DNA of 64,000 bases from Elusimicrobiota bacterium. Lineage in GTDB: Bacteria > Elusimicrobiota > Elusimicrobia > FEN-1173. The translations under genes were made by a program, and so were the position numbers. Under the pieces are notes generated by a model. The model was not told the origin of the DNA. It saw nothing but the letters and a program-made list of their open reading frames with translations, and ran no database searches. Below, piece by piece: positions 1-63,560 of the stretch (position 1 is its first letter; the number at the start of each line of letters is the position of its first letter). The stretch spans positions 14,707-78,706 of the forward strand of contig JAEURZ010000014.1 in assembly GCA_016788905.1 (NCBI GenBank). Reading direction: 5' to 3'.

Positions 1-1736
1 ATATTCTCCTCGCCTACCTGTGTCGGTTTGCGGTACGGACACACTATGCAGTAACCGCGGGGCTTTTCTTGGCAGCGTAGTTGGGCCGCTTCACATGTCT
101 TGCGACACGCTCGCACTCAGTTCTCGGGATGAACGGCTCCCCGGATTTACCTGGAGAACCTCCCTACCACCTTGGACCGGTGACCTTCTACCGGCCGGCT
201 TACCTTTCTGCGTCCCCCCTCGGTGTGACCCACATAATGTGGTTCAGGAATATTAACCTGATGCCCATCATCTACGCCTTTCGGCCTCGACTTAGGATCG
301 ACTAACCCTGTTCAGACGAACTTTAAACAAGGAAACCTTAGGCTTGCGGCGGGTCTGATTCTCACAGACCTTATCGCTACTTATTCCGACATCCTCACTT
401 CCGTTTCGTCCAGCACTCCTATCGGTGTGCCTTCATCCTACAACGGAACGCTCCCCTACCCCGTACAATGGACGAATCCATCGTACAGCCGTGACTGCGG
501 TATCAGGTTTGAGCCCCGGACTTTTTCGGCGCGACTTAACTTGACGAGTGAGCTGTTACGCACTCTTTAAAGGATGGCTGCTTCTAAGCCAACCTCCTCG
601 CTGTCTGAGTCAAATCACATCCTTTACCACTTAACCTGAATTTTGGGACCTAGGTCGACGGTCTGGGTTGTTCCCCTCTTGCGCACGAAGCTTAGCCCTC
701 GTGAACTGACTGCAGAGTTTTCCCGTATGTATTCGGAGTTTGGTTAGATTCGGAACCGAGGTATTCGGCCCTACACTATCCAGTGCTCTACCTCACACGG
801 TCATCACTCCACGCTAGCCCTAAAGCTATTTCGGGGAGAACCAGCTATCACCAGCCTCGATTGGCCTTTCACCCCTAACCCAAGCTCATGCAGGACATTT
901 TCAACTGTCAACGCTTCGGGCCTCCATCACCGTTTAAGGTGACTTCACCCTGTCCTGGGTTAGATCGACTGGCTTCGGGTCTACTATTGCATACTTGTCG
1001 CCCGTTAAGACTCGCTTTCGCTACGGCTCCACACCTTCAAGGTGCTTAACCTTGCATGCAACAGTAACTCGCCGGATCATTCTTCAACAGGCACGACGTC
1101 GAGCATTCCCCTTGCGGGGCATAGCTCTTCGTCTGCTTGTAAACGCACGGTTTCAGGTTCTTTTCACTCCCCGTCAGGGGTCCTTTTCACCTTTCCCTCG
1201 CGGTACTTGTGCACTATCGGTCGCCAGAGAGTATTTAGCCTTGGAGAGTGGTCTCCCCGGATTCACGCCGAATTTCACGTGCTCGGCGTTACTTAGGTAC
1301 TTGTCGTGAGCCGCTTCGTTTTCGTTTACGGGACTCTCACCCTCTTTGGTCGGCCTTTCCAGGCACGTTCGACTAACGAAGCGATTTTTTACTCACCGGC
1401 TCTAAACCGGACAAGCCCTGCAACACCCACCATAGGATGGGTTTAGGCTGTTCCCCGTTCGCTCGCCACTACTGAGGGAATCTCGTTTGATTTATTTTCC
1501 TCCAGGTACTGAGATGTTTCACTTCCCTGGGTTGTCTCGACAACGGTACCTCTTCCAGTTTCCCGAAAGCATTTCCATTGCCGTTCCGTGATTTGTCACC
1601 ACGGAGGGTTTCCCCATTCAGAGATCTCCGGATCAAAGGTTGCTTGCACCTCCCCGGAGCGTTTCGTCGCTGGCCACGTCTTTCATCGACTTCTGGCGCC
1701 AAGGCATCCACCATGCGCTCTTAGTAACTTAGCCGC
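1..1736 (-). rRNA. rrl: 23S rRNA, 5' ~1.7 kb (3' part lies beyond window start)
   Basis: Reverse complement of 1690-1736 reads ...GGCTAAGTTACTAAGAGCGCATGGTGGATGCCTTGGCGCC, the canonical 23S 5' domain; conserved 23S blocks throughout 1-1700; no long ORFs. Confidence 0.85.
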
Positions 1737-1933
1737 ATCTTTATATCCTCAGTCGCATCGCGCTACTCAAGGCGTTTGGACATAAAACGTCCTAACGTCT
1801 TTTTGAAGCTCGATACAACATACAATTAGACGCTTGACTTTCCTATTCGTGTGTCAAAGAACCGCCTGCGATTGTGGCTTTTCATGCTGCCAGAACCCGG
1901 CGAACTGCAAAATTTGATTTTACAGGATCAAAG

Positions 1934-2006
1934 TGGAGCTGATCGGGATTGAACCGACGGCCTCCTGCTTGCAAAGCAGGCGCTCTCCCAGCTGAGCTAC
2001 AGCCCC
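1934..2006 (-). tRNA. tRNA-Ala (anticodon TGC) in the 16S-23S spacer
   Basis: Reverse complement GGGGCTGTAGCTCAGCTGGGAGAGCGCCTGCTTTGCAAGCAGGAGGCCGTCGGTTCAATCCCGATCAGCTCCA; cloverleaf, TGC anticodon; CCA not encoded. Confidence 0.9.
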
Positions 2007-2112
2007 ATCCTACAAAGAGTTTCACCCTAAATAGTTGGGGCATTCCTCGTATCCTTACGAGGGCAGCCCTCTTGAATAAGGCCCCGGCATCATCCTTACC
2101 CCGCCTTAAACT

Positions 2113-2186
2113 TGGGCGGAAGTGGACTCGAACCACCGGCCTCACCCTTATCAGGGGTGTGCTCTAACCAGCTGAGCTATCCGCCC
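2113..2186 (-). tRNA. tRNA-Ile (anticodon GAT) in the 16S-23S spacer
   Basis: Reverse complement GGGCGGATAGCTCAGCTGGTTAGAGCACACCCCTGATAAGGGTGAGGCCGGTGGTTCGAGTCCACTTCCGCCCA; GAT anticodon. Confidence 0.9.
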
Positions 2187-2357
2187 TGCGGAATTTCCGC
2201 GCCTCTCGCGCGCCGCAGACACCCATAGCTCCGCAAGGGTGCCCGTGATTCCAAAATTTCATTTCCAAATGCCACTTCGCAAGCTGGTGAGCGCCCCAAA
2301 GGCGCTACTGACGATCGACCTCTTTCAGCGACGCCGAAGCGTCCTGAAATACTCCTT

Positions 2358-3895
<1,538 letters not shown>

Positions 3896-7751: not shown

Positions 7752-9146
7752 TTAGTTAAAGGGATTATTTTTTAGACCACCCATTCGAAAGAAAAAAACC
7801 ATGTCATCCAAATCCCGACGAAACTTACGGGGGAGAGCGGCTCTTTGAAGGCGGAGATTTGTTGAAAGGACAGGTGGCAATGGACGATCCGGCGTTTTAA
7901 CAAAAATAAACAATGGAACCCCATGGGTGCTGTACACCTGGGCCGAAGCTGGGAGGCATTCGCGCGTAAGAACTTGAAAATCTTTCAGACTAAAAGACGC
8001 CCGCAAAGACCGTTCAAAATCGAGGTTGAACAAATACGGCTGGGTTTTTTCTTCTTTATAGGCAAAATAGAGGACAGACTTGAGAGATTTCAGTCGGCCT
8101 AAATCGGCGAGAAAAATGGCCCCACCCGGTTTCAGTATGCGGCGAATCTCACGAAAACAGTCTTTTAAGTGTTCTCGCGTGGGCAAATGATGTAACGCAA
8201 CCGTACTGATAACCCCATCCACACTGCCCTCTTCGAAAATACCGAGTTGCGTGACATCGGATTTTTGAAAAGTGACATTGGTCAGCCCCCGACCTTGAAT
8301 GTACGCACGCGCCTGGTCCAACATAGAATCCGACATATCCACCCCCACAAAGGAAATGTCCGGGTTCAGCTGAGCCACTTCGGCCAGTTGGGTGGCCGGC
8401 CCACACGCAAGGTCCACCACCCGTGAGCATCCTTGAATCGCAAGACTGATTCGAGCCGCGTGGTGGAGATAAACGGCACGAAAGCCTCCCTCCCGTCGTC
8501 CCGCGGTGGCATAGGCCACCACTTCCGTTGAATCTTCCATGACGAGGTCCGGTTCAGGTTCTCTGCGCAAGCGGCGTTGCCCCATCGTTTCCCGAAGCAA
8601 AACCCAGAGCATCGGCAAATTCAAAAACCGTCGAAACGTAGAAAACAAATCAGATAGGACCACACGGAAGCAACGACGATCGGACGATTTAAAATAATCC
8701 GCTTCTTCCTGTTGTGATTTTTGATCCACGGAAGGCCTCGTCGCAGGAGGGGCCTCGGAAAGAACGAATGAGCGGCCTGTTCGGCGAAGAAGGCTCGCCA
8801 CCCGGGCCAAAAATTCGGAAGCCTCATAGGGTTTTGTCATGTAATCATCTGCCCCGGTTTGCAAACCTTCGACTTTGTCTTCTGTTTTTAATAGCGACGT
8901 GAGGAGAAGCACCGGGACCGTTCGCGTGCGCTGGTCATTGCGAAGGATTTCGCATAACTTTACCCCTGAAATCCCGGGCAATCGAATGTCCGCCACCAGG
9001 AGGTTCGGAGACTCTTGAAAAACAATTTTTAAGGCTTCTTCGGCGGATCCCACATCAATCACCTGGTATCCCGCCCGATTTAAAATAATCCGTGTCACAT
9101 TTCGCATTTCCGAATCGTCTTCAACGAGAAGAATGAGTGGTTTCAT
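7752..9146 (-). CDS. Response-regulator receiver domain fused to a class I SAM-dependent methyltransferase (464 aa)
   Basis: N-terminus MKPLILLVEDD...LLVADIRLPGISG...GADDYMTKP is a REC domain; C-terminus VVDLACGPA (motif I), VGVDMS, DGVISTVALHHL, LKPGGAIFLADL are class I MTase motifs; start overlaps the HK stop by 4 nt. Confidence 0.75.
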   Translation of the reverse strand: MKPLILLVEDDSEMRNVTRIILNRAGYQVIDVGSAEEALKIVFQESPNLLVADIRLPGISGVKLCEILRNDQRTRTVPVLLLTSLLKTEDKVEGLQTGADDYMTKPYEASEFLARVASLLRRTGRSFVLSEAPPATRPSVDQKSQQEEADYFKSSDRRCFRVVLSDLFSTFRRFLNLPMLWVLLRETMGQRRLRREPEPDLVMEDSTEVVAYATAGRREGGFRAVYLHHAARISLAIQGCSRVVDLACGPATQLAEVAQLNPDISFVGVDMSDSMLDQARAYIQGRGLTNVTFQKSDVTQLGIFEEGSVDGVISTVALHHLPTREHLKDCFREIRRILKPGGAIFLADLGRLKSLKSVLYFAYKEEKTQPYLFNLDFERSLRASFSLKDFQVLTRECLPASAQVYSTHGVPLFIFVKTPDRPLPPVLSTNLRLQRAALPRKFRRDLDDMVFFFRMGGLKNNPFN

Positions 9147-10528
9147 AAAATCCCCTTATGAATCGGTAACGTAAAAAACAAAGCGGTCCCCTGCCCAACT
9201 ACGGATTCCACACGCAGGCGTCCTCCGTGCCCCTCCACCAAGCTTTTCACAATAGAAAGTCCCAGCCCTGAACCCTCTTGAGGTCCCGTGTTCAGAACGC
9301 GGACGGGCTGAAAGAGACGCGACAACCGTTCCGGGGTAATTCCGGGCCCCGTGTCTTTGACACCAAACTCAACGAACCCGTTGGTTTGCGCGGCGCTGAA
9401 AATGACGATAGAATCACCCCCTTGAGTGAATTTAAACGCGTTGGCCACCAGGTTCAAGAAAATGCGCAAGGTTTTTTCTTCATCCGCTTCCAGAAGAGGA
9501 AGCGTTTCGGGAAACTGAACCATGAACATCTTGTTGGATTCTTTCGCGAACGGACCGTACAGTCGAACCAGTTCTTCCACAAGGGGGGCCACCTGAAAAA
9601 CAGTCTTCCGAAAGGGAATTTCCCCTTCTCTTAACCGGGCCGCGTCCAAGATATTATTGACCATGACCCTCAAGCGGAGAGCTCCCCTCTCAATAGATTC
9701 GATGAGAGTCCGATCTTCACCCGAAAAAGCTCCTGACCGCAACACCTGAGCCGCGGTACTGATGGCACTGAGCGGATTACGTAAATCGTGAGATATGGCG
9801 TAAAGAATTCGTTCCTTCATTTCATCCAGTTCCCGCAGCCGAACCGCCATACCGTTAAATTCCCGTGCCAGACCACCCAATTCGCCCGGCGCTTTTTCGG
9901 ATACCCGAGTGTCCAACGCGCCCGATCCGATTTTTCGCGCGCCCGCGGCAAGCGCGTGAATGGGTCGTGTCAAGGTTCGCGCGGCCAAGAAGGACAGGCC
10001 TGTTCCCATGAGCAACACACCGACACCCAACCACAAAAAACGCCCCACCGTAGAGATCAGGGCCAGACGAAGTCGAGTAAGGACCCTCTCCCCATCATAA
10101 ACCACCCGCGCGGTCGCGACCCAGTCTCCCCCCTGGAAAATGGGAGATCGATAGTCCCAGCGGGATCCGACGCCTGATTCTGTCAACATGATTTTTTGCG
10201 GTTCAGCCGGAGCCCAATCCGCCTTCTTCCCTTTTTTAGTCAAGTCCGTATGCATGAGTAATTTCCCCTGAGGATTCACGCAGGCCGCTTCCACTAGGGC
10301 ACCTTCCGTTTTCAGCTGATTCATAAAATCGATGAGGCCTAACTCATTCCGGGACAGGAGTGCGTCCCCACAAGCCAATCCGAGGTGGTCCACTGTAATC
10401 CAATGGGTTTTTTCTGCCTCGCGAACAAGGTGTTGACGCTCGGCCCAAAGAAGAACACCGGAATAGACCAGGAGGACAAAAAACGTGAGGGCGGCAATCG
10501 CAACGGCGAATCGGGTCCCGATGCTCAT
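9143..10528 (-). CDS. Sensor histidine kinase (two TM helices, periplasmic sensor, HAMP, HisKA, HATPase_c)
   Basis: H-box ISHDLRNPLSAI, G-box GTGLGLSIVKSLVEGHGG, N-terminal TM plus a second TM around residue 160. Confidence 0.8.
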   Translation of the reverse strand: MSIGTRFAVAIAALTFFVLLVYSGVLLWAERQHLVREAEKTHWITVDHLGLACGDALLSRNELGLIDFMNQLKTEGALVEAACVNPQGKLLMHTDLTKKGKKADWAPAEPQKIMLTESGVGSRWDYRSPIFQGGDWVATARVVYDGERVLTRLRLALISTVGRFLWLGVGVLLMGTGLSFLAARTLTRPIHALAAGARKIGSGALDTRVSEKAPGELGGLAREFNGMAVRLRELDEMKERILYAISHDLRNPLSAISTAAQVLRSGAFSGEDRTLIESIERGALRLRVMVNNILDAARLREGEIPFRKTVFQVAPLVEELVRLYGPFAKESNKMFMVQFPETLPLLEADEEKTLRIFLNLVANAFKFTQGGDSIVIFSAAQTNGFVEFGVKDTGPGITPERLSRLFQPVRVLNTGPQEGSGLGLSIVKSLVEGHGGRLRVESVVGQGTALFFTLPIHKGIL

Positions 10529-11739
10529 GGGTGATTCTTTAATTGCCGGACAACCCGATCCAAAGCCCGCGCCGCCATTTCATCATCCGGCGCCAACCCA
10601 ACACATTGCTCAAAAGCCTTCCGCGCGGCCGAAAGGTCCCCTCGGGAATATTCCATCAACCCCTTGGAATAATATTCTGCGGCTCTTTCGTGGTCTGGAG
10701 CGGTTGGGCGAGCCAGGGGTTTTTCACTTTTATGGGGGTAGGACTTTCCCCAATCCTCCCAGAGGCGCCCGAGATTTTCCCGAGCCGCTGTGTTCAAAGG
10801 ATCTTCTTTCAAAACAGCCAACCATTCGCGCACGGCTTCTTGACGACGCCCCTGAAACTCGGCTTCCCGGGCACGGCCAATGCGACGGCCTAAATCGGCC
10901 CTCTGGGATTCGCGTCGAACGATTTCCTCTAAACGTTGAACTTCTTCCTTTGCAAAACGGTTTGTCGAATCCAACACCAACCCTTCCCGATAATACCCCA
11001 AGGCCGCCCGATAATTTCCTTCTGAATATTGGGTTTCGCCCAATCCAAATTTCTTTCTTGCGAGAGCACGCCGTTCATCTATTTTCAGGCTGTTTTCAAT
11101 TTCCTGAACATAACGTGCTAACTCCTGATCGGAGGGATCCAAACTTAACGCCTTTTTCCATTCCGTCAAAGCGGGAACAATATCCATTCGTTGGTAAGCC
11201 ATAAAACCAGAAACACGATGAATATCCACTTCGGCGGGAAGCACGCCCGCCGCAACACCTGAAGAGAGGGAGAGACAAAGATCTCTAAGATACTCATTGC
11301 GGCGGGGGTCGGGGTCATCGTTCGCCAGGGAGATTTGCATTTGAAGTTCGACACCCCGACAGGTGTGAAGGAGAGATTCCGGCGTGGTCCGCCATTTGTG
11401 TTCATAGGACGCTCGAAGGTTGTTGAGCGCTTTCCGCGTTTCATGTTCCTGCTGATTTAAGGTGTGAAGGGCGCGAACGAGAGCGGGCCCGCGATCCTCT
11501 CGGGCAAGGACATCCAGTTCATTGGCCTTTTTTTCAATGGCCGCGGCGGTCACCTTCAGGCGTTTCAGGGCACCGACATGGCCTGGATCTTCCGAGAGGA
11601 TGTCCAGGAGCTTATCCATGGCCCCGGTCAGATCTCCCTGAGCCTGGAGTTCTTTCCAATCCTGAAATGGGGGTTTTCCCCCCGCCCAAAGGCCAACGGT
11701 CCCGAGAAAGAGAAAAACTAACGCCCCGAATCGTCCCAT
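10525..11739 (-). CDS. Secreted tetratricopeptide-repeat (TPR) protein with signal peptide
   Basis: MGRFGALVFLFLGTVGLWAGG signal; repeated helical A/L/Y-rich 34-aa units (AALGYYREGL..., AAEYYSKGLMEY...); 4-nt overlap with the HK start. Confidence 0.6.
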   Translation of the reverse strand: MGRFGALVFLFLGTVGLWAGGKPPFQDWKELQAQGDLTGAMDKLLDILSEDPGHVGALKRLKVTAAAIEKKANELDVLAREDRGPALVRALHTLNQQEHETRKALNNLRASYEHKWRTTPESLLHTCRGVELQMQISLANDDPDPRRNEYLRDLCLSLSSGVAAGVLPAEVDIHRVSGFMAYQRMDIVPALTEWKKALSLDPSDQELARYVQEIENSLKIDERRALARKKFGLGETQYSEGNYRAALGYYREGLVLDSTNRFAKEEVQRLEEIVRRESQRADLGRRIGRAREAEFQGRRQEAVREWLAVLKEDPLNTAARENLGRLWEDWGKSYPHKSEKPLARPTAPDHERAAEYYSKGLMEYSRGDLSAARKAFEQCVGLAPDDEMAARALDRVVRQLKNHP

Positions 11740-12776
11740 TCTTTTTTGAGCCGTTGGTTGGCCTCCCGCAACTTCAGGAGGGCTTTTGAGTGATGGGGGT
11801 CCGCCGCCAAGGCACGGTTGAAATTCACTACGGCTCGGGCAAAATCTTCTTGCCGCAAATAACCCAATCCCTTTTCATAAAACGCTTCCGCGGGTTTCCC
11901 AAAGTGCCAAACCAGTCCCACATGGTGCGTGTTCCCCAGATCCCCCAGAGGGGCAAACGCGTAATCCAAACGGAGATCTCCCACACGAAACCCCAACCCG
12001 TAAGTAAACGAATCTTCTGTACTCCCATCATACCCCAAACGAAAAAAGGACGAACCGCCGGAGGCGTATTCGATCCCCACCATCGGGCGGAGGTCTTCTC
12101 CGTTGGATTGGACCAGGTCCGCCGCTAGAGTAATTTTTTCATCCCAAACCCCTGTGGCAATCCCAAACCGTAATTCACGCGGCGGGCCTTGCCCGGGGGA
12201 CCAACCCACCCCCAGTCTTCGAACGGAAACTCCCGCGCGGAACCCCTGGAAAAACGTGGGCGCGGGGAGACGAGCCAATAATCCCCCATCAAAAAATGCC
12301 CCTTGAATGGATTGATCGTGAAATTTACGTTCGGTTTGATTCAACGCGATACCCGCCCACACTCGATTTCGAAATCCTCCCGCGCCGGAAATCTGGAACC
12401 AATCTTCGCGTGCGCCAATGTTGCCCAGCGCGTTTCCTGACGAATCCAGCCCCGAGATGGTTCCGTAATCGACACCTGACCACCGGGCGGCCAAGGTTCC
12501 TTTTTCCATGGGAAAGGCAACACCCAAGGAGTCTCTTATTATGGATTCGACCCCCTCGTGGTGGGAAAGGGACACTTCCCCCCGGGCCAACCGCCCCAGA
12601 CCGGCAGGATTCAAAACCCCGGACGCGTGGTCATCCCCCAACGCCGTCCCGGCCCCACCCAGGCCCATGGAACGAACTCCAGGAGAAGCGGAAAGGAATT
12701 CCCATTCTTCTCCCTCTCCTGCCAAAAGGGATAAGGAGAAGAGCACCCCTCCGACAGCGATAACTATTTTTTTCAT
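11718..12776 (-). CDS. Outer-membrane beta-barrel protein of the PorV/FadL-like type with a C-terminal TPR-like tail
   Basis: Signal peptide MKKIVIAVGGVLFSLSLLAG; N-terminal motif GLGGAGTALGDDHASGVLNPAGLG (as in PorV/FadL-family barrels); alternating Gly/aromatic beta-strand pattern; C-terminal YAFAPLGDLGNTHHVGLVWHF then a helical segment. Confidence 0.45.
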   Translation of the reverse strand: MKKIVIAVGGVLFSLSLLAGEGEEWEFLSASPGVRSMGLGGAGTALGDDHASGVLNPAGLGRLARGEVSLSHHEGVESIIRDSLGVAFPMEKGTLAARWSGVDYGTISGLDSSGNALGNIGAREDWFQISGAGGFRNRVWAGIALNQTERKFHDQSIQGAFFDGGLLARLPAPTFFQGFRAGVSVRRLGVGWSPGQGPPRELRFGIATGVWDEKITLAADLVQSNGEDLRPMVGIEYASGGSSFFRLGYDGSTEDSFTYGLGFRVGDLRLDYAFAPLGDLGNTHHVGLVWHFGKPAEAFYEKGLGYLRQEDFARAVVNFNRALAADPHHSKALLKLREANQRLKKEWDDSGR

Positions 12777-14197
12777 CGGATGACCATCAGTTTTCCTTTT
12801 TTAGCCACACCGGGGCTTTGAACATGATAGAGATAGACTCCCGGGACGACGGGTCTTCCCGATGTGTTTTTACCATCCCAGCAGAGAATGCCGTCTCCTC
12901 CCGTTTCTTCCAGCTGTCTCACTTCCCGCCCCGATGCCGTAAAAATTCGAAGCGTGGCCCGCTCGGCTAAGTTTGCGAAAGTGACCTGGGCGTCCGTCCC
13001 CTGGCGAAATGGGTTTGGCGATACACGAAGATCTTGGAGAGAAACGTCTTCCTGGCCCATCACCGACAGCGTCCCGAGTGATTGAACAATCGCCACGACC
13101 TTCCCGTCTTCCACACGAGAAGGGATCTTGTTCCAAAGCCCCGCGTGAAAATCAAGCCGGTAGAAACTGAGCGTGGTTTCCCGAACAAGGCCTGCCCCCG
13201 TTTCGACCCAACCGTCATTCGATGCGAAGTCGTAGCTCAGGGTCGCGGGGGCATGAAGATTTTCGTCCAAATGGGCGGGGCAGGCGCGGCTGGATTGGAT
13301 TTCCGCTAACCCATTCGGAAGGGGGCGACGTCGGACATCCCCGGTTCCCAGTATTTTATGATTGGCATCTAATATTTTTTCTGGAAGTGTCGGCGATTGA
13401 AGTGGATTCTCCAGGGGGGCGGCGTTGAAGGTCATGGTGTCTTCCGATGAAATATCCAATGGGGAGAGAGAGAGCTCCCAACGATTGTTTCCCCACAAAT
13501 AATTCGTTTGAGGAGGGCTGTCCGAAAGGGTGCGGGTTGATCCGAGAACGTGGAACGGGGTGGGAATCCCCTCCCGATTGAGGGCTCGAACACGTGCGTA
13601 GTATAATGTTCCCGGTGAAAGACACCCAATTTTTTTCGCTATTAAATTTCCGTATTCGGACGAAATAGATTCAACGAGGGGCTCATCAAAACCAGCCTTT
13701 TCCGAAAATTGGATTTGATAGTTTGTTCCAATGGGATTAATTTGCCCACTAACCCCGGTGGACCACCAAGCCACAGTAATGCTTCGACTCTGAACATTTT
13801 GAAATGGGATCGACCACGAATCGGAGGGAGGCGCCGCCAAAGAAGCAAAACTCCACCGTTGAAGCAATTCACTCGCGTTTTCAATCCAAAAAACATCCAC
13901 GCGATTTTCGGCGTTTAAAAAGAAATTTCCTATTTCCAATTGACCCTCTGTCCCGAGTGGGGCAAAAGTATAAACGCCCTGTACATTTTGTTCTGCATCG
14001 ATAATGCTAAAACGCAAATGATCACCAACGCCACAACTGTTATTCGTCCAATGGAGGGTCACTTTGGTGTAATCGTTTTGCGTCGCATAAAAATCTGACG
14101 CGCAGGGGAAAATGTCAATCGCTCCCAACATCAAACAAGAATAAAGGACAATAGATTTCACAATTTGAATTCTATCCCCAAAAATCTCTTTTAACAA
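12773..14197 (-). CDS. Secreted fibronectin-III-repeat protein with C-terminal T9SS-type / FlgD-Ig-like sorting domain
   Basis: FN3-like segments (YTKVTLHWTNNS, ITVAWWSTG...GTLYYARVRALN); C-terminus VSPNPF...ATLRIFTASGREVRQL...CWDGKNTSGRPVVPGVYLYHVQS...KGKLMVIR matches the Por-secretion-tail / FlgD-Ig consensus; N-terminal hydrophobic signal. Confidence 0.55.
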   Translation of the reverse strand: MLKEIFGDRIQIVKSIVLYSCLMLGAIDIFPCASDFYATQNDYTKVTLHWTNNSCGVGDHLRFSIIDAEQNVQGVYTFAPLGTEGQLEIGNFFLNAENRVDVFWIENASELLQRWSFASLAAPPSDSWSIPFQNVQSRSITVAWWSTGVSGQINPIGTNYQIQFSEKAGFDEPLVESISSEYGNLIAKKIGCLSPGTLYYARVRALNREGIPTPFHVLGSTRTLSDSPPQTNYLWGNNRWELSLSPLDISSEDTMTFNAAPLENPLQSPTLPEKILDANHKILGTGDVRRRPLPNGLAEIQSSRACPAHLDENLHAPATLSYDFASNDGWVETGAGLVRETTLSFYRLDFHAGLWNKIPSRVEDGKVVAIVQSLGTLSVMGQEDVSLQDLRVSPNPFRQGTDAQVTFANLAERATLRIFTASGREVRQLEETGGDGILCWDGKNTSGRPVVPGVYLYHVQSPGVAKKGKLMVIR

Positions 14198-14251: not shown

Positions 14252-15679
14252 TTACCGCTTGATTTGTTTAAGGACGTTGCCTTTGGGGTCCGTGATTTCG
14301 AGGAGGAGAGGCATGGAGCCTACGGCGTGGGTGGAACAGGAGAGACAGGGGTCGTAACAACGGATGGCACCTTCCACACGGTTCAGGGCGCCCTCCTTCA
14401 CATCGGCGCCGTTCACGTAGGTTTTGGCCACTTCCAAAACAGCTTGGTTCATGGACGGGTTATTTTGTCCCGTGGCGATCAGCAAATTGACGCTGGTGAG
14501 GATCCCGTTGGGGTCCACCTTGTAGTGGTGGAAGAGGGTTCCCCGGGGAGCTTCTGAACACCCCACCCCTTCGGACCGGTTTCGGCCCGCTTCGGAGCGG
14601 ATCTCTGTGGACATCACCCGGGGATCATTCAAAATCATCTCGACCAGTTCAACGGAACTCATCATTTCGATGATCCGCGCGTGATGGAAAGCGAAAGACC
14701 CAGAGACCGGCCGACCACCCGCAATGGAACGGAAATCTAAAAATTCTTTTTGCGCGTGCGGGGTCGGCATGCGGGTCGCCGCGTTCAACCGGGCCAGGGG
14801 CCCCACGCGATAGATCCCGCCGGGGTATCCCAAGGGTTTAAAGTAGGGCGCTTTTAAATAGGAATATTCCAACGGCCGTTCCGCAATAAATTCCGCGAAA
14901 CGGGCCGGATCCACCTGATCCGCCACGATGTTGCCCACAGCGTCCACCCACCGAAGTTTTCCATCATAAAGTTCGTGGGTCCCGTCCGGAAGAACCGTGC
15001 CTAAGTAAAGAGTGTCGAACCGGGCGAAGGCCTCCATTTCTTTCCGGTTGGCCTCCCAATATTTTTTGTAGAGCGCCAAAGCCACTCGAACGCTTTCCAT
15101 GGCTTCCGGAATCCAGGCCAAAAGCGCCAGTCGGTTTTCTTCGGTCAGGGCCTGGGTCACGCCCCCAGGAACAATGGCTCCGTTGTGGATCTTTTTCCCC
15201 GACAACCGGGAGGAGAGTTCCTGCCCGAATTTACGAAGCCGGATCCCCCGGCGTGCCACGTCCGGAAATTTTTCGGCGATATGCATGATATTGCGCGTCG
15301 TGGGGTCCGCGTCCCAACCCAAAAGGAAATCCGGCGACGACAAATGGAAAAAGCTGAGCGCGTGAGAACTGAACATCTGGCCCAAGTGCATGAGTCGGCG
15401 CAGAAGTGTCGCCGTGGGAGGGACCTCCACCGCCATAATATCTTCGCAGGCCTTGGCGCTGGCCACCGCGTGGCTCACGGGACAAATTCCACAAATCCGT
15501 GGTGTGATGATGGGCATTTCCGTGAAGTGCCTTCCTTCACAAAACTTTTCAAACCCGCGGAACTCTTCCACATGAAACCGAGCGTCCGCCACTTTCCCGT
15601 CATTTCCTAACATCAACGTGATTTTGGCGTGGCCTTCCACGCGGGTCACGGGATGAATCACAATTGTCTTGTCAGCCAT
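14252..15679 (-). CDS. hoxH: [NiFe]-hydrogenase large subunit, NAD-coupled (bidirectional) type HoxH
   Basis: N-terminal RICGICPVSH and C-terminal DPCLSCSTHAVG Ni-binding Cys motifs; 475 aa. Confidence 0.85.
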   Translation of the reverse strand: MADKTIVIHPVTRVEGHAKITLMLGNDGKVADARFHVEEFRGFEKFCEGRHFTEMPIITPRICGICPVSHAVASAKACEDIMAVEVPPTATLLRRLMHLGQMFSSHALSFFHLSSPDFLLGWDADPTTRNIMHIAEKFPDVARRGIRLRKFGQELSSRLSGKKIHNGAIVPGGVTQALTEENRLALLAWIPEAMESVRVALALYKKYWEANRKEMEAFARFDTLYLGTVLPDGTHELYDGKLRWVDAVGNIVADQVDPARFAEFIAERPLEYSYLKAPYFKPLGYPGGIYRVGPLARLNAATRMPTPHAQKEFLDFRSIAGGRPVSGSFAFHHARIIEMMSSVELVEMILNDPRVMSTEIRSEAGRNRSEGVGCSEAPRGTLFHHYKVDPNGILTSVNLLIATGQNNPSMNQAVLEVAKTYVNGADVKEGALNRVEGAIRCYDPCLSCSTHAVGSMPLLLEITDPKGNVLKQIKR

Positions 15680-16208
15680 TTTTTAAAGCCCCCGGGGGAA
15701 TGACCAACGGCTGGCCCTCCAGTAACGCCTTCAGTGCGGCAAAGATCAACTCAGGAGCGGGCGGGCACCCCGGCACATGTACATCCACCTTCACGTAACT
15801 GGCCAAGGGACAGGCGCGCGGAAGAAGGGTCGGAATGTCCACCGTCGGCATCGCCCCCTGTCCATCGTTCGTCACGATTTTATTGTAGGCGTGATCCAAC
15901 ATGGCCGCGGGGCCCAAAAGGTTCCGAAGGGCCGTCACGTTTCCTGTGACAGCACAATCTCCCAGCGCCACCACAACCTTAGAACGTTCCCTGATTTTCA
16001 GGATTTGCGCCCTGTCTTGATCTGTCGACACACATCCTTCCACCACCGCCACGTCGACGCCTTCCGGAAACTCTTTCGTGTCCACAAGGGGGCTTTTCAC
16101 CAGCGCCATGAGGGGCGCTAATTCTAAAAGTCCTTCGTCAATATCCAAAAGAGACATATGACAACCGGAACACCCACCCAGCCAAACGGTAGCGACGCGT
16201 TTTTTCAT
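15672..16208 (-). CDS. hoxY: [NiFe]-hydrogenase small subunit HoxY (NuoB-like)
   Basis: MKKRVATVWLGGCSGCHMSLLD proximal-cluster Cys motif and GCPP motif; 178 aa. Confidence 0.85.
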   Translation of the reverse strand: MKKRVATVWLGGCSGCHMSLLDIDEGLLELAPLMALVKSPLVDTKEFPEGVDVAVVEGCVSTDQDRAQILKIRERSKVVVALGDCAVTGNVTALRNLLGPAAMLDHAYNKIVTNDGQGAMPTVDIPTLLPRACPLASYVKVDVHVPGCPPAPELIFAALKALLEGQPLVIPPGALKNG

Positions 16209-16909
16209 GGGCGTTTTTCTCGTCGCGCGGCTAACGTTCCAGCCACGCTAGGATCTTTTTTTAATTCTCCCGGAACAGCCCCTTTTTTCCAGAGAGCGCC
16301 TGTAGGGCACAACTGAACACATTTTCCACAACTCGTGCAATCAGTGGATTCGGCCCAGGGACGATTAAAGTCCGCAAACAACCGACTTTGAACCCCTCGC
16401 CCCATGATGTCCCACACATGAGCCGTTTCAATTTCGTCGCACACGCGCACACAGCGCGTGCACAGGATGCACCGGTTCTGATCTAAAATAAAATCTTTGT
16501 GGGACGCGTCCACCCCCACCGCCGGTTGCAAGAACGGATAGCGAAAATGGTCGATCCCTGTTTTTACCGCCAGCGTCTGAAGTTCGCAGTGGTTATTGGC
16601 CACACACACACCGCACATGTGGTTCCGTTCGGAAAAAAAGAGTTCCAAAATCATTCGGCGGTAGGTGCTCAATTGATCTGAACTGGTACGAACTTTTTGA
16701 TAGGGCATCGCGGGTGTCGTACAGGCGGGGAGCAATTTCGTTGTTCCTTCAATCTCCAACAGGCACAACCGGCAGGCTCCCACTTCCGTCAAACCGTCCA
16801 CAGCGCAAAGGGTAGGGAGAAATACTTTTTCGCGGCGGCAAACATCCAACAAGGTCTCTTTGGGTTCGGCCGAAACTTCACGACCGTCAATTGTAATAGT
16901 AAAACTCAT
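16205..16909 (-). CDS. hoxU: Diaphorase iron-sulfur subunit HoxU (NuoG N-terminal-like, 2Fe-2S plus 4Fe-4S)
   Basis: MSFTITIDGREV...LCAVDGL...CRLC 2Fe-2S ferredoxin fold, then CxxCxxCxxxCP 4Fe-4S motifs; start taken at MSFTI (RBS upstream) rather than the ORF start at 16969. Confidence 0.8.
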   Translation of the reverse strand: MSFTITIDGREVSAEPKETLLDVCRREKVFLPTLCAVDGLTEVGACRLCLLEIEGTTKLLPACTTPAMPYQKVRTSSDQLSTYRRMILELFFSERNHMCGVCVANNHCELQTLAVKTGIDHFRYPFLQPAVGVDASHKDFILDQNRCILCTRCVRVCDEIETAHVWDIMGRGVQSRLFADFNRPWAESTDCTSCGKCVQLCPTGALWKKGAVPGELKKDPSVAGTLAARREKRP

Positions 16910-16994
16910 GGGTTCAGACCTCGTGTCCGAAGGCCAAAAGATTCGATCCCTCTCCCACCCCTCTCCCAAGAGGAGAGGGAAATCACGTTAAGGT

Positions 16995-18656
16995 TCATCG
17001 GACCGCTCCCACACTGTCCATGTGACAGACACCCGCGGGACATTGATGGTCTCGGATGTGGGCCGTGTATTCATCTCGGAAATACCGCAACGTTGAAAGG
17101 AGAGGATTGGGGGCGGTCATTCCGAGCCCACAAAGACTTGTGGCTTTCACCATGGGGGCCAACTCTTCCAACAGATCGAGATCCCCGGGAACCGCGCGTC
17201 CCGCGCAAATTTTATCCAGCAGGTCGTGCATATGTTTGGTCCCCACGCGACACGGGACACATTTGCCACAACTTTCGTCCATGCAAAATTCCATAAAGAA
17301 CCGGGCCACGTCCACCATGCAGGACGTATCGTCCATAACGATGAACCCACCCGATCCCATAATGGAGCCCAAAACCTGGAGAGATTCGTAGTCCACCCGG
17401 GTGTCCAAGTGCGCTTCGGGGATGCACCCACCGGAAGGACCACCGGTCTGGACAGCCTTGAAACGCCTTCCTGCGGGAATACCGCCCCCAATATCAAAAA
17501 TGATTTCCCGGAGCGTGATCCCCATGGGGACTTCGATCAACCCGGTGTTTCGGATTTTCCCCGCCAACGCAAAAACTTTCGTTCCGGAATTTTTTTGGGT
17601 CCCTATCTTCGAAAACCATTCGCCGCCTTTGGCGAGGATCGGAGCGATGTTGGCAAAGGTTTCCACGTTATTGATGAGAGTGGGTTTTTCCCAGAGGCCC
17701 GATTCCGCGGGATAGGGGGGCCGAGGCCGCGGTTGCCCGCGCCGCCCTTCGATGGAAGCGATCAGGGCCGTTTCCTCCCCACAAACGAACGCCCCCGCTC
17801 CGATCCGAATTTCCACGTCAAACGAAAAACTGGTTCGAAATATTTCACGGCCCAACAGTCCTTCCCGCCGTGCCGTTTTGATCGCCTGTTCCAAGCGTTT
17901 GATGGCCAACGGGTATTCAGCGCGCACGTAGAGAAAGCCCTTGTTGGCCCCTACCGCGTAGCCCGCGATCGCCATCCCCTCCAAAACCCGATGGGGGTCC
18001 CCTTCTAAAACACTCCGGTCCATAAACGCACCGGGATCGCCTTCATCGGCATTACAAATCACGTATTTTTGGTTGTTGACCATCTTGGCCACAGTCTCCC
18101 ACTTGAGACCGGTGGGATAACCTGCTCCGCCACGTCCGCGAAGACCGGACTTCTTCATTTCCGCCACCACGGCTTCCGGCGTCATTTCACTCAACAGGGT
18201 GTGAAGCGCCCGATACCCGCCGACGGCAATATATTCCTCTATGCTCTCCGGATTGATGCGACCACAATTCTCCAAGACGATCTTCTGTTGTTTTTGGAAA
18301 AAGTGAGCGTCGGGGGCGTCAGGTTCCCGGGGGGAATAGAGTTTATGCTTGGGTGAAACGGCCTTCCCACCCGTGATTTGTTCGAGTACAGCCCCCGCCT
18401 CCGCGGCGGAAATCCCCTGCAACAAAATATCGTCGTTGGCGAGCTGGACCAAAGGCCCTTTCTGACAGGCCCCCATACAACCGGAGGGGACCACCTCCAC
18501 TTGGGTTTCCAAACCGCGCTCTTTTACCAGCTTTTGCAACGTGGAAAGGGTTTCCCCGCTTCCGCAGGAAAAACACCCGGCCCCAGCGCACACCAGGAGA
18601 CGGCGCCTCTGCCCCATCTGGGCTTTAGCGTGGGCCGCTGTTTTCTCAAGATCCAC
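16995..18656 (-). CDS. hoxF: Diaphorase NAD(H)/FMN-binding subunit HoxF (NuoF-like with N-terminal thioredoxin-like 2Fe-2S domain)
   Basis: [26 protein letters not shown] site, C-terminal CxxCxxCxxxC cluster, N-terminal CxxxxC...CxxxC 2Fe-2S domain; 553 aa. Confidence 0.85.
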
Positions 18657-19134
18657 GGAGTTTCTCCTGAACCGCTCCAGAAATGGTCGAGGGGTCCACC
18701 CGCGCTAAAATTTCCTCATCATAGACGACCGCTGGCGCGAGGCCGCACGCTCCCAAACATCGGGCTTGGGCCAACCCCAATTTTCCGTCGGGAGTGACGT
18801 CCCCAGGTTTTAAACCAAACGTTTTTTGCAACTGATCCAAAATTTTTCCGGCACCCTTCACGTAACACGCCGTCCCCATACAGACCAGACACTGGTGATC
18901 CCCACGAGCTTTCAGGGAGAAGTAATGGTAGAAGGTTGACACCCCATACACACGGCTGGCGGGCACGCGCAACTCTTTGGCCACCATCCGCAACACGGGC
19001 TCGGGCAAATACCCAAATATTTCTTGAACAATATGAAGGATTTGGATCAGCGCGTCGGGGCGCCGATCGTAAAGTTTCATCTCCCGTGCCACACGTTTGA
19101 CCCGGGGATCGTCAGGCGTAACTGGACCGCTCAT
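18646..19134 (-). CDS. hoxE: Diaphorase 2Fe-2S subunit HoxE (NuoE-like)
   Basis: [13 protein letters not shown]...[16 protein letters not shown] thioredoxin-like [2Fe-2S] motifs; 162 aa. Confidence 0.85.
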
Positions 19135-61789: not shown

Positions 61790-63124
61790 TCAATGGGAAA
61801 TGGGTGGTGCCAATTCTTTGTGCGAGGGGCTGCTCTCCGGATCCGTCAAAAGATCGTCTAAGGGGCTGGACGGAGCGTTGGCCATGTCGCGCAGGACATG
61901 GGTGTAGATCATGGTTGTCTCAACGCTTTTGTGTCCCAAGAGTTCCTGAACTTCCCGGATATTAACCCCTTTCATCAACAGATGTGTGGCGAAACTGTGC
62001 CGAAGCGTATGGACCGTGGCGTGCTTGGTTAACCCCGCTTTAACAACCGCCCTCGCCATGGTTTGTTGAATGGCCGAATCGCTCAGATGGTGTCGCCGCA
62101 CTTTTCCGCTCCGGGGGTCCACAGACAGTCGGTCTGAGGGAAAGACATATTGCCATTTCCATTCTTTCCCTGCACGGGGATATTTGCGGTCAAGTCCCTC
62201 GGGGAGATACACGTCTCCAAACCCTTTAGCAAGATCTCCATCATGGAGACGTTTAACTTCAAGAAGATGATTTCGGAGCGGGTCTCTGACCGATTTCGGC
62301 AGCATGGTCGTTCGGTCTTTGTCCCCTTTCCCCCCACGGATATACAGTGTTCCCCGATCAAAATCCAAATCGTGAACGCGCAATCGGGCCAATTCCATGA
62401 GTCGCATCCCCGTCCCATAGAGCAGTTCAAGGATAAGCCGATTTTCCCCCGTCGTCGAGGCAAAAACCTCGCGAACCTCTCCCCGCGACAGAACCACTGG
62501 CAATCGAATGCCCCGTTTCGCGCGAACTGTTTTTCGAATGTCGTCCAAGGACCGCCCCAATACATCCCGAAAAAGGAAAAGCAGTCCATTAAACGCCTGG
62601 TTCTGAGTTGAAGCGGAAACACGATCAACCACCGCCAATCGAGTCAAGAAATCGCTCACGTCTTCCGAGGTCCATTCCGATGGCTCTGTTTTTCCACGCA
62701 CAGAAGAAATATATTTATGAAACCGAGTATACCAATCTAAATAGGAGCGTTCGGTACTGAAAGAGTAATGCTTTAAACGCATTCTTTCCTTTAATTTTTC
62801 CTCCACCGCACCCCCCGTCGCTGGAGCGACAGGGAGCGATTCTTCTTTTGTTCCAAAATAACGATTATACAGGCGGACGGCTGATTCCGCTTGGGCGATT
62901 TGCCAGGGTTGAAATTTTCCCTGAATGGATGTATGCTTTAAAAAGCGTTCCAGGCCAATTTCAAACGGCACTGCCCCGTCAGTGTTCTGGCCCAAAAAGG
63001 TCAAATAAGCCTGGGCCCACTGCGCGAGAAAAGGGATTTGTTTTTCAAGAGCAAGGTTACGCTGCCGCAGCAGGTTTTGGAATTCAGGCAAGCAAGCCTG
63101 ATTATATGAAGTAAGCATAACCAT
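61790..63124 (-). CDS. intI: Integron integrase IntI (tyrosine recombinase with IntI-specific insertion), 444 aa with N-terminal extension
   Basis: [16 protein letters not shown], the IntI-specific additional segment [20 protein letters not shown] (cf. IntI1 [20 protein letters not shown]), [29 protein letters not shown] with catalytic Tyr. Confidence 0.85.
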
Positions 63125-63240
63125 GTAACAAGGGAATTTTACTTCGATTAATCATCTTGTATTTCATTTTATTCAAAATAGAAAAAGGCGTCAACGGGCC
63201 TTTCCCGAAGAAAGAAGAGTATAGATAATAATTGTTAGGC
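63125..63240 (+). other. Candidate attI site ending in the core GTTAGGC (63234-63240); AT-rich, divergent from intI
   Basis: GTTRRRY core site positioned 110 bp upstream of the intI start, followed immediately by an AT-rich ORF and an attC-like element. Confidence 0.5.
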
Positions 63241-63248
63241 GCTAAAGA

Positions 63249-63560
63249 ATGCGACTATTTAGACAACCGACAATAGATGATTTAAAAAATCGGGGATTTT
63301 TACTTTACACCAAATTTGGTCTTAACAAATCCCCCGCGGACAGTGTTCGGGAATCATTTCCTAGTGTAGAAGTTGAATTGAAAAACACGTGGATTACAGA
63401 TTTCAAAAAGATTGAAATAGAGCTGACACGTCATTATTCCCAGAGTTTGAATGACAATAAGGTCATTATGGATCAATTAAAATCGAGATTTCCTTTTTTA
63501 AATAGAAGGTCTTGTAAGCGGATAGAGTTTCTGTTGTGGTATTCGAGATTAAGAGGGTAA
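63249..63560 (+). CDS. First integron cassette ORF, 103 aa hypothetical protein (AT-rich, ~33% GC)
   Basis: Complete ORF between GTTAGGC (attI core) and GCCTAAC (attC inverse core); composition differs sharply from the ~60% GC host. Confidence 0.55.
   Translation: MRLFRQPTIDDLKNRGFLLYTKFGLNKSPADSVRESFPSVEVELKNTWITDFKKIEIELTRHYSQSLNDNKVIMDQLKSRFPFLNRRSCKRIEFLLWYSRLRG

What the first reader, a model, noticed from the sequence alone, without database searches (positions are those of the whole stretch)
11718..14197. PorV/FadL-like barrel adjacent to a protein with a T9SS-type C-terminal sorting domain
- Cargo: the C-terminal ~80 aa of the 474-aa protein (LRIFTASGREV...CWDGKNTSGRPVVPGVYLYHV...KGKLMVIR) resembles the Por-secretion-tail / FlgD-Ig domain.
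- Partner: the neighbouring gene encodes a signal-peptide beta-barrel with the GxGGAGxA...NPAGL N-terminal motif shared by PorV/FadL-type shuttles, fused to a TPR tail.
- Implication: a dedicated cargo-shuttle pair outside canonical Bacteroidetes T9SS loci would be informative about the organism's secretion machinery.
Basis: inference. Interest (0 to 1): 0.55.

Follow-up and report, generated by a model that had tools for sequence, protein, structure and literature searches.

The report
Paired surface protein and barrel anchor
An uncultured Elusimicrobia bacterium encodes a fibronectin-like surface protein whose conserved tail resembles a type IX secretion signal, right next to its own PorQ/PorV-like outer-membrane barrel; this pairing recurs across the group, a phylum not listed in the literature as having type IX secretion.

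Summary
Two overlapping minus-strand genes encode (i) a 462-474-aa secreted protein made of FN3-like domains that ends in a T9SS type-A-like C-terminal domain (CTD), and (ii) a 352-aa, 14-stranded FadL-superfamily barrel with a short C-terminal TPR tail.

The barrel's best sequence and fold matches are PorV and PorQ. The CTD's best solved relative is the PorZ CTD. All curated scores for the window proteins are borderline: PorV_fam 86.6 bits against a cutoff of 90, and TIGR04183 23.1 against 23.

The main new result is comparative. In about nine non-orthologous loci, most of them from labelled Elusimicrobia/Endomicrobiia MAGs, a CTD-tailed protein with an unrelated passenger (392-2048 aa) directly abuts a barrel of this family, often with a 4-nt overlap. 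A TPR protein and a two-component regulator usually follow. Two divergent pairs coexist in single genomes and are inherited as units.

The most likely function is a cognate cargo/anchor module, like PorQ-PorZ or SprF-SprB. Whether a SprA/PorKLMN translocon exists elsewhere in these genomes could not be tested; none lies in the 64-kb window.

I rate it a new variant of a known kind, of moderate interest.

The parts
12773..14197 (-). Cargo gene. The longest ORF is 474 aa; the probable true start is the GTG at 14161, giving 462 aa. It encodes a secreted multi-domain beta-sandwich protein.
   Evidence: AF2 model with pLDDT 79; fold matches are tandem FN3 arrays only.
14111..14161 (-). Signal peptide of the cargo, ending at the conserved A-F-P-C junction. 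C32 is one of four invariant cysteines (C32, C55, C192, C306).
   Evidence: Alignment A1. Cleavage by signal peptidase I is inferred from A-x-A before FPC in the relatives.
13844..14101 (-). Variable N-terminal Ig/FN3-like domain (residues 33-118). It is the fastest-evolving part, with mean pairwise identity 0.36.
13532..13813 (-). Fibronectin type III domain (residues ~129-222).
   Evidence: Pfam fn3, 25.4 bits against 25; PDB FN3 hits.
13058..13522 (-). Rare pre-CTD middle domain (residues 226-380).
   Evidence: 27 representatives among 1.84 billion. 21 of the 25 new hits end in the same CTD.
12776..13024 (-). C-terminal sorting/anchoring domain (residues ~392-474), preceded by a low-confidence linker (384-402). 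It carries PNPF, an invariant G423 at the likely start of beta4, WDGKN..G..V.PGVY, and invariant G468-K469 in the last strand.
   Evidence: (identity 0.76, the most conserved region).
11718..12776 (-). Barrel gene (352 aa). Its start overlaps the cargo stop by 4 nt. Layout: signal peptide (~1-19), plug region with invariant N56-A58-G59-L60 (P57 nearly invariant; the NPAGL motif) (26-62), 14 strands (66-292), TPR tail (295-350).
11727..11894 (-). C-terminal three-helix TPR tail of the barrel. It is presumed periplasmic.
   Evidence: Pfam TPR_1/TPR_2 at 296-329; helices 295-350 in the model. Topology is inferred from even-stranded OMP rules.
10525..11739 (-). 404-aa all-TPR protein with a signal peptide. 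It overlaps the end of the barrel gene by 22 nt and is conserved in all type-b loci. In other loci it is replaced by a longer TPR fusion on the barrel.
9143..10528 (-). Histidine kinase (HAMP-HisKA-HATPase_c) with a 4-nt overlap. It is conserved after the TPR gene in window, L003, L008 and L009.
7752..9146 (-). Response-regulator receiver fused to a SAM methyltransferase, with a 4-nt overlap. It is probably the last gene of the unit.
   Evidence: Response regulators recur next to barrels in L003, L004, L005, L017 and L018.

Best explanation
This is a cognate cargo/anchor module. The 462-aa FN3-type protein is exported by Sec. Its conserved C-terminal cassette (mid-domain, linker, type-A-like CTD) is recognised by the PorQ/PorV-family 14-stranded barrel encoded by the overlapping downstream gene. 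The barrel collects the protein and holds it on the cell surface through the uncleaved CTD, as PorQ holds PorZ and SprF holds SprB.

The barrel's periplasmic TPR tail and the separate TPR protein would act as periplasmic docking or scaffold elements. The downstream histidine kinase and response regulator would control the unit.

Shown here: homology of both parts, the barrel's architecture, conserved adjacency with unrelated passengers, co-inheritance of pairs, and faster evolution of the passenger than of the CTD.

Inferred only: physical CTD-barrel binding, surface location, the roles of the TPR proteins and the two-component system, and the route across the outer membrane. That route could be an unidentified translocon or the barrel module itself.
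For: Barrel:
- NF033709 at 86.6 bits, E = 2.3e-24.
- The family profile hits PorV 6h3i_F at E = 3e-42.
- The top fold matches are PorV in SprA complexes, TM 0.64-0.67.
- The model has 14 strands and an N-terminal plug region; N56, A58, G59 and L60 of the NPAGL motif are invariant and P57 nearly so.

CTD:
- TIGR04183 at 23.1 bits against 23; best hits are PorZ and PorU, whose CTDs are not cleaved (PMC10947112).
- The solved PorZ CTD in 5M11 matches at 1e-4.
- G423 and K469 are invariant; by position they look like the functional beta4 Gly and last-strand Lys described in PMC11285876, but this equivalence was not established by a structural alignment.

Pairing:
- A CTD gene abuts the barrel in window, L003, L004, L005, L007, L008 (twice), L009 (twice), L012 (twice), L017 and L019.
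- The passengers are unrelated: FN3, G8/beta-helix 1425 aa, G8/fn3 2048 aa, CarboxypepD_reg 555 aa, and a 1029-aa protein with a T9SS-protease-like C-terminus.
- The FCB-type loci L010-L016 lack this abutment.
- Two pair types are inherited as units and coexist in L009, where the barrels are 30% identical and the CTDs 41%.

Evolutionary rates:
- The CTD is the most conserved region of the family, 0.76 against 0.36 for the N-terminal domain.
- Cargo paralogues are 48-62% identical between window and L003, where Hox proteins are 93% and the barrel 81%.

Paired barrels score PorQ above PorV in every case.
Against: - No binding or localisation data exist.
- The window proteins only graze the curated cutoffs. 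They fail the PorV (15 against 250) and PorQ (48 against 220) equivalog models, and Pfam Por_Secre_tail gives no hit for the window cargo.
- The barrel is compact (~270 aa against ~390 for PorV), so the PorV loops that bind CTDs may be missing.
- 46 of 52 family members also match treponemal UPF0164 'FadL-like' proteins, which are thought to import small molecules.
- A plugged 14-stranded barrel cannot by itself explain export of 45-200-kDa proteins, and no translocon was identified.
- Several of the loci used are unlabelled metagenome contigs.
Confidence: 0.55

Rival explanations
1. Ordinary T9SS cargo plus a PorV/PorQ paralogue. These Elusimicrobia would have a complete T9SS (SprA/Sov, PorKLMN, PorU) elsewhere in the genome. 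The pair would just be a cargo gene next to a specialised collector that docks on SprA, as proposed for PorQ and PorP-like proteins.
For: There is sequence and fold homology to PorV/PorQ and to type A CTDs. NCBI names relatives 'T9SS type A sorting domain-containing protein' and 'PorV/PorQ family protein'. In Ignavibacteriales locus L014, a true PorZ lies 3 kb from a PorV2-like barrel. PMC9143113 and PMC10947112 propose that such barrels collect cargo from Sov.
Against: The literature reports T9SS genes only in FCB-group phyla and as absent from other phyla (PMC11285876). No T9SS core gene was found in the 64-kb window, and no T9SS-core Pfam appeared in the precomputed annotations of the flanks of L003, L004, L005, L007, L017, L018 and L019. 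No paper links Elusimicrobia with T9SS. A whole genome was not examined.
Confidence: 0.2
2. Autonomous Slam-like translocon. The barrel together with its TPR tail and TPR partner would itself move the neighbouring CTD protein across the outer membrane, without any SprA-type channel. Slam does this as a TPR plus 14-stranded barrel that exports adjacent surface lipoproteins recognised through their C-terminal domain.
For: The module is compact, translationally coupled and self-contained: cargo, barrel-TPR, TPR. A TPR is always fused to or adjacent to the barrel. Cognate pairs are multiplied within genomes. The phylum is not known to have T9SS. One locus couples the barrel to ExbB-ExbD-TonB.
Against: There is no homology to Slam/DUF560. 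The TPR is C-terminal here, not N-terminal. The model has an N-terminal plug region in the position of the hatch of import-type FadL channels. Cargoes of up to 2048 aa seem too large for such a pore. The Slam comparison rests on my own knowledge, not on a test made here.
Confidence: 0.15
3. The barrel is a FadL/UPF0164-type small-molecule importer, as proposed for the T. pallidum barrel-TPR proteins. The neighbouring CTD protein would be an unrelated or accessory surface protein.
For: 46 of 52 family members match UPF0164 and 23 of 52 match FadL/TodX. The barrel-plus-C-terminal-TPR architecture equals that of three of the five T. pallidum FadL-like orthologs (PMC8407342). The NPA-type plug motif is conserved.
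Against: This does not explain why a CTD-tailed gene abuts the barrel in about nine non-orthologous loci, nor why CTD and barrel types are co-inherited. PorV is a better sequence and fold match than FadL.
Confidence: 0.07
4. Flagellar FlgD-related protein, or a chance adjacency of two unrelated genes.
For: Pfam FlgD_ig is the best Pfam hit for the tail (29 bits). JGI names fragments 'flagellar hook assembly protein FlgD'.
Against: FlgD equivalogs score 17-23 bits against cutoffs of 230-383 and match only the Ig part. There are no flagellar genes nearby. The PorZ CTD scores better than FlgD in PDB. The adjacency recurs with different passengers.
Confidence: 0.03

Closest known systems
PorQ-PorZ (and PorV-PorU) sub-complexes of the P. 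gingivalis T9SS attachment complex
   Same: A 14-stranded FadL-family barrel partners a protein whose CTD is retained rather than cleaved and serves as the surface anchor (PMC10947112). The window CTD's best matches are the PorZ and PorU CTDs. All paired barrels score PorQ above PorV.
   Different: Neither protein reaches the equivalog cutoffs: PorQ 48 against 220, PorZ 36.7 against 260. The passenger is FN3-type, not the PorZ beta-propellers. The genes overlap here. The barrel carries a TPR tail. The host is Elusimicrobia. The rest of the T9SS was not found or not tested.
[quoted passage not shown]
   Same: The organisation matches. Multiple cognate cargo/barrel pairs occur per genome, the cargo gene is adjacent to its own 14-stranded FadL-family barrel, and the barrel anchors the cargo (PMC9143113). 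From my own knowledge, PorE contains a TPR domain, which would parallel the TPR gene here.
   Different: The barrel is not PorP/SprF: no TIGR03519 hit for the window protein. The tail is type-A-like, not type B (CHU_C 18.1 against 27).
Treponema pallidum FadL-like OMPs with a C-terminal TPR extension (Pfam UPF0164; from memory TP0548, TP0859 and TP0865)
   Same: A 14-stranded barrel carries a short, presumptively periplasmic C-terminal alpha-helical TPR bundle (PMC8407342). 46 of 52 members of the barrel family match UPF0164.
   Different: The window protein is below the UPF0164 gathering score (17.9 against 21.4). The treponemal proteins are interpreted as nutrient importers, and no CTD partner is described. 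That paper reported the architecture as having no counterpart among Pfam FadL members, which these data contradict.
Slam (surface lipoprotein assembly modulator) of Neisseria (from my own knowledge)
   Same: A TPR domain plus a 14-stranded barrel is encoded next to substrates that are recognised through a C-terminal domain.
   Different: There is no sequence homology. The domain order is reversed. The substrates here lack a canonical lipobox.

Membership tests
FadL/OMPP1 superfamily of outer-membrane barrels | 14 antiparallel strands with an N-terminal hatch/plug carrying an NPA motif | tested here: met
   The AF2 model has 14 strands (66-292) and a plug region (26-62). N56, A58, G59 and L60 are invariant and P57 is nearly invariant. 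FadL, TbuX and TodX are fold matches at TM 0.45-0.55.
FadL/OMPP1 superfamily of outer-membrane barrels | Match to Pfam Toluene_X (PF03349) | tested here: inconclusive
   The window protein gives no hit. 23 of 52 family members hit weakly, best 1.7e-5.
PorV/PorQ family (NCBIfam NF033709) | Score at or above the curated cutoff of 90 bits | tested here: not met
   The window barrel scores 86.6 bits, E = 2.3e-24, over its full length. Five of the seven paired relatives tested pass at 126-172 bits. The family profile hits solved PorV at E = 3e-42.
PorV/PorQ family (NCBIfam NF033709) | Orthology to PorV (NF033710, cutoff 250) or PorQ (NF033711, cutoff 220) | tested here: not met
   PorV 15.4 bits and PorQ 48 bits. 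PorQ outscores PorV in all paired relatives, but all are below cutoff.
PorV/PorQ family (NCBIfam NF033709) | Binds the CTD of secreted proteins | not testable with these tools
   Only indirect support: conserved adjacency and co-inheritance.
T9SS type A C-terminal sorting domain (TIGR04183 / Pfam PF18962) | HMM score at or above cutoff, located at the extreme C-terminus | tested here: inconclusive
   TIGR04183 scores 23.1 against 23 at residues 392-472 of 474, a bare pass. Pfam Por_Secre_tail gives no hit, and FlgD_ig scores 29 against 27. Partner-locus cargoes pass: L017 PF18962 at 27.8 against 27; L012 TIGR04183 at 24.6 against 23.
T9SS type A C-terminal sorting domain (TIGR04183 / Pfam PF18962) | Beta-sandwich with a conserved Gly at the start of beta4 and a Lys in the last strand (PMC11285876) | tested here: inconclusive
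   G423 and K469 are invariant in 17-19 family members, and the model is all-beta over 405-472, though with pLDDT of only 55-80. Their equivalence to the published positions was judged by eye, not by structural alignment.
Type IX secretion system (whole system) | Core genes sprA/sov, porK/L/M/N, porU and porT in the same genome | not testable with these tools
   None in the 64-kb window or in the annotated flanks of seven related loci. Whole genomes could not be scanned.
Type IX secretion system (whole system) | Host belongs to the FCB group | tested here: not met
   Proteins 100% identical are labelled 'Elusimicrobia bacterium' by NCBI. The literature lists T9SS only in FCB phyla (PMC11285876).
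PorP/SprF barrel with a type B CTD | TIGR03519 PorP/SprF match, and a CHU_C/type B tail on the cargo | tested here: not met
   The window barrel has no TIGR03519 hit. CHU_C scores 18.1 against 27. Only the gene organisation is shared.
Flagellar hook cap FlgD | FlgD equivalog score and a flagellar gene context | tested here: not met
   17-23 bits against cutoffs of 230-383, matching the Ig part only. No flagellar genes are nearby.
Treponemal UPF0164 (PF03687) barrel-TPR proteins | Pfam gathering score of 21.4, and a C-terminal helical TPR extension | tested here: inconclusive
   17.9 bits for the window protein; 46 of 52 relatives match at E <= 0.01. The TPR tail is present.

The most novel reading that the evidence does not exclude
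Elusimicrobia, and perhaps other non-FCB diderms such as spirochaetes with UPF0164 barrel-TPR proteins, carry self-contained 'mini type IX' modules. In these, a type-A-like CTD cassette, a cognate PorQ-like barrel and TPR partners would suffice to deliver and anchor a surface protein without SprA/PorKLMN. Such a module could be the evolutionary precursor of the T9SS attachment complex, or a stripped-down relative of it.
Probability: 0.22. Interest if true: 0.8.

Novelty: new variant of a known kind. Interest (0 to 1): 0.55.

Why it matters
The literature describes T9SS components as confined to the FCB group. Here, homologues of its two cargo-handling parts, the CTD signal and the PorQ/PorV barrel, form multiplied, translationally coupled, cognate gene pairs in Elusimicrobia, always with TPR partners.

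If these genomes lack SprA/PorKLMN, the module would show what the CTD-barrel interaction can do on its own. It would also point to the origin of the T9SS attachment machinery.

If they do have a full T9SS, the system's phylogenetic range is wider than stated, and type A CTDs can have dedicated collectors, which so far has been proposed only for type B.

Separately, the data link the T. pallidum 'FadL-like' barrel-TPR vaccine candidates to the PorV/PorQ clade. That suggests they may have protein partners rather than, or as well as, lipid cargo.

Tried and rejected
- **Genome scan, first attempt:** The search for related loci with the 52-sequence barrel alignment failed for lack of a conserved stretch. 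A 10-sequence alignment worked.
- **CTD-only homology search:** it returned mostly short gene fragments. It showed that NCBI labels such tails as T9SS type A in Elusimicrobia and Endomicrobiia, but said little about full architectures. Three long-contig hits were followed up.
- **Literature searches for T9SS or PorV in Elusimicrobia and in the Danish WWTP secretome paper:** nothing relevant.
- **Promoter/terminator scan:** at chance level, and no terminator between hoxH and the cargo gene. It therefore does not settle where the transcription unit starts.
- **Cargo fold search:** only generic FN3 arrays, with no functional clue for the passenger.
- **Hox hydrogenase linkage:** rejected as part of the system. 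It is kept only in the closest relative, L003, and not in L008 or L009.
- **Lipoprotein reading of the conserved FPC cysteine:** considered, but the -3 to -1 residues do not fit a lipobox, and a second invariant Cys (C55) suggests a disulfide. This is inference only.
- **Mantel correlation (r = 0.98):** it mainly reflects two orthologous groups, so I use it as evidence of co-inheritance, not of co-evolution.

Full report
**What is there**

The window is a contig of an uncultured Elusimicrobia bacterium. Proteins 100% identical to both ORFs are in NCBI as JNK54_06885 and JNK54_06890, 'MAG: Elusimicrobia bacterium', both named 'hypothetical protein'.

Five minus-strand genes follow each other with overlapping stops and starts:
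- cargo, 12773..14197; probable true start GTG 14161, giving 462 aa
- barrel, 11718..12776, 4-nt overlap
- an all-TPR protein, 10525..11739, 22-nt overlap
- a HAMP histidine kinase, 9143..10528
- a receiver-methyltransferase fusion, 7752..9146

Upstream lies a HoxEFUYH hydrogenase. No terminator-like site separates it from the cargo gene, but the scan is at chance level.

**The cargo**

Pfam gives fn3 (25.4 bits against 25) and FlgD_ig (29 against 27). NCBIfam gives TIGR04183, the T9SS type A sorting domain, at 23.1 against 23. The best hits are the C-termini of PorZ (1.7e-9) and PorU (1e-6); FlgD equivalogs are far below cutoff.

A profile of 19 family members finds the PorZ CTD (PDB 5M11, residues 671-748) at 1e-4, against 0.01 for FlgD. 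PMC11285876 confirms that 5M11 is PorZ.

The AF2 model (pLDDT 79) shows, in order:
- a signal-peptide helix
- an Ig-like N-domain
- an FN3 domain
- a beta-rich middle domain
- a low-confidence linker (384-402)
- an all-beta CTD

Fold matches are only tandem FN3 arrays.

In the family alignment the signal peptide ends at a conserved A-F-P-C junction, and four cysteines are invariant. G423 and K469 are also invariant. By position they look like the Gly at the start of beta4 and the Lys in the last strand that PMC11285876 shows to matter for T9SS CTDs, but I judged this by eye.

Mean pairwise identity rises from 0.36 in the N-domain to 0.76 in the CTD.

The middle domain is rare, with 27 representatives among 1.84 billion. 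Of the 25 new hits, 21 end in the same CTD, on proteins of 424-1385 aa. The conserved unit is therefore a ~250-aa C-terminal cassette.

**The barrel**

NF033709 (PorV/PorQ family) scores 86.6 bits against a cutoff of 90 (E = 2.3e-24, full length). PorQ scores 48 and PorV 15, both far below their equivalog cutoffs. The TPR lies at 296-339.

A 52-member profile hits solved F. johnsoniae PorV (6h3i_F) at E = 3e-42.

The AF2 model (pLDDT 91.2) has 14 strands, an N-terminal plug region and three C-terminal helices. In the NPAGL motif, N56, A58, G59 and L60 are invariant and P57 is nearly so. Foldseek ranks PorV in the SprA translocon complexes first (TM 0.64-0.67), ahead of FadL/TbuX/TodX (0.45-0.55).

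At family level, 46 of 52 members match Pfam UPF0164 (the T. pallidum 'FadL-like' family), 26 match PorV, 23 match FadL, and 21 carry a TPR. The clade sits between PorV/PorQ and the treponemal barrel-TPR proteins. The architecture of those proteins was reported to have no counterpart among Pfam FadL members (PMC8407342).

**Comparative evidence for a functional pair**

In the closest relatives (L003, L008, L009) the core 'cargo x1-3, barrel, TPR, HK' is conserved. Hox adjacency is kept only in L003.

An HMM of the family's CTD also hits the extreme C-terminus of the gene directly upstream of distant barrels:
- L004: a 1425-aa G8/beta-helix protein, 5.5e-15
- L005: a 2048-aa G8/fn3 protein, 3.4e-12
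- L007: a 557-aa protein, 3.7e-6

A genome-collection scan and three CTD-seeded look-ups added further cases:
- L009a and L019: a second pair type
- L008: a second pair, whose barrel is fragmented
- L017: a CarboxypepD_reg protein that passes Pfam Por_Secre_tail (27.8 against 27), followed by barrel, RR and HK
- L012: two pairs, one with a 1029-aa TIGR04183-positive protein overlapping the barrel start by 4 nt
- L018 (Endomicrobiia): CTD, then RR, then barrel-TPR

Loci from Fibrobacteria, Gemmatimonadaceae, Ignavibacteriales, Eisenbacteria and two unclassified MAGs show no abutting CTD gene. In Ignavibacteriales, however, a bona fide PorZ (309.7 bits) lies 3 kb from a PorV2-like barrel.

Five of the seven paired barrels tested pass the PorV/PorQ family cutoff (126-172 bits); counting the window's barrel, three of eight fall just short. 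All score PorQ above PorV.

Pair types a and b are each conserved across genomes, and both coexist in L009, where the barrels are 30% identical and the CTDs 41%. This argues for cognate partners rather than a single shared shuttle.

Between window and L003, Hox proteins are 93-94% identical, the barrel 81%, the TPR protein 77%, and the cargo paralogues only 48-62%. That is the pattern expected of an exposed, diversifying surface protein with a constrained anchor.

**Mechanism**

The best-supported reading is a cognate cargo/anchor module. After Sec export, the C-terminal cassette is recognised by the neighbouring PorQ-like barrel. The barrel holds the FN3 protein at the surface through an uncleaved CTD.

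PorQ does this for PorZ (PMC10947112), and SprF and PorP do it for type B CTD proteins. [quoted passage not shown]

The recurrent TPR element, whether a tail, a fusion or a separate gene, and the two-component genes probably serve periplasmic docking and regulation. This is inference.

How the cargo crosses the outer membrane is the open step. It could use a T9SS translocon encoded elsewhere, or the module could be autonomous in a Slam-like way.

**What could not be settled**

The window is otherwise housekeeping:
- an rRNA operon
- PEP synthase, Fnr and purK
- haem biosynthesis and glycine cleavage
- GlmS/GlmM and pantothenate/folate genes
- an integrase

It holds no T9SS core gene. None appears in the annotated flanks of seven related loci either.

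The literature places T9SS only in FCB phyla, and no paper in the library links it to Elusimicrobia.

**Verdict**

Two refinements apply: the pair is PorQ-PorZ-like rather than PorV-like, and it is one instance of a recurrent module type in Elusimicrobia.

Homology of the parts is already reflected in NCBI names for relatives. The cognate, translationally coupled, TPR-associated organisation in a non-FCB phylum appears undescribed in the library searched.

I rate it a new variant of a known kind, interest 0.55.

Noticed in passing
window 1-3895 (-): An rRNA operon: partial 23S (1-1734), tRNA-Ala(TGC) and tRNA-Ile(GAT) in the spacer, and a complete 16S (2360-3895). The 16S could place the organism precisely within Elusimicrobia.
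   Followed up: no
window 14252-19134 (-): A HoxEFUYH-type NAD-linked [NiFe] hydrogenase lies directly upstream of the module, with no terminator-like site between them. The adjacency is kept only in the closest relative, L003 (Hox proteins 93-94% identical), and not in L008 or L009.
   Followed up: partly
window 7752-9146 (-): A response-regulator receiver fused to a SAM-dependent methyltransferase is the last gene of the unit. In L003 a separate OmpR-type RR is present together with a 904-aa methyltransferase/AMP-binding protein. In L008 and L009 only the methyltransferase part finds a match (31-32% identity); the RR there was not examined.
   Followed up: partly
window 61790-63124 (-) and 62000-64000: A phage-type tyrosine integrase sits next to a drop in G+C to 0.47, against ~0.55 elsewhere. 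This may be the edge of an integrated element.
   Followed up: no
barrel family (alignment A2); window 11727-11894: 46 of 52 family members match Pfam UPF0164, the T. pallidum 'FadL-like' OMP family, and 21 of 52 carry a TPR. PMC8407342 reported that the barrel-plus-C-terminal-TPR architecture had no counterpart among Pfam FadL members, so it is in fact widespread. The treponemal proteins may belong to the PorV/PorQ clade.
   Followed up: partly
L007 8001-15072: A barrel with a weak FlgD_ig hit is followed by an 834-aa TPR protein, ExbB-ExbD-ExbD-TonB and a 298-aa FlgD_ig protein. This may be an energised version of the module.
   Followed up: no
L014 4403-10957 (Ignavibacteriales MAG): A true PorZ equivalog (309.7 bits against 260) lies 3 kb upstream of a PorV2-like barrel (204 bits, below the cutoff of 325). 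This is loose linkage of a PorZ/barrel pair in an FCB-group lineage.
   Followed up: partly
L009 395-7014 and L019 6730-13418: The type-a CTD/barrel pair sits immediately next to an RND efflux operon (OEP plus AcrB) in both genomes. The AcrB gene is split into two ORFs in L009.
   Followed up: no
L008 6070-7076: A second barrel copy, between cargo paralogues, is broken across three to four reading frames. This is either a pseudogene or frameshift errors in the assembly (contig names begin 'tig', which suggests long reads).
   Followed up: no
window 13058-13522 (-): The cargo's middle domain matches no Pfam or NCBIfam family and has only 27 representatives in 1.84 billion proteins. Of the 25 new hits, 21 carry the same CTD at their extreme C-terminus, on proteins up to 1385 aa. 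A 2495-aa protein (P0208) shows 14 matched stretches.
   Followed up: partly
L001 1457-2671: In an independent assembly of the same organism the TPR gene was called as two genes (204 and 150 aa), although tblastn shows it is 99.8% identical over the full length. This is a gene-calling artefact or a single-base difference.
   Followed up: partly
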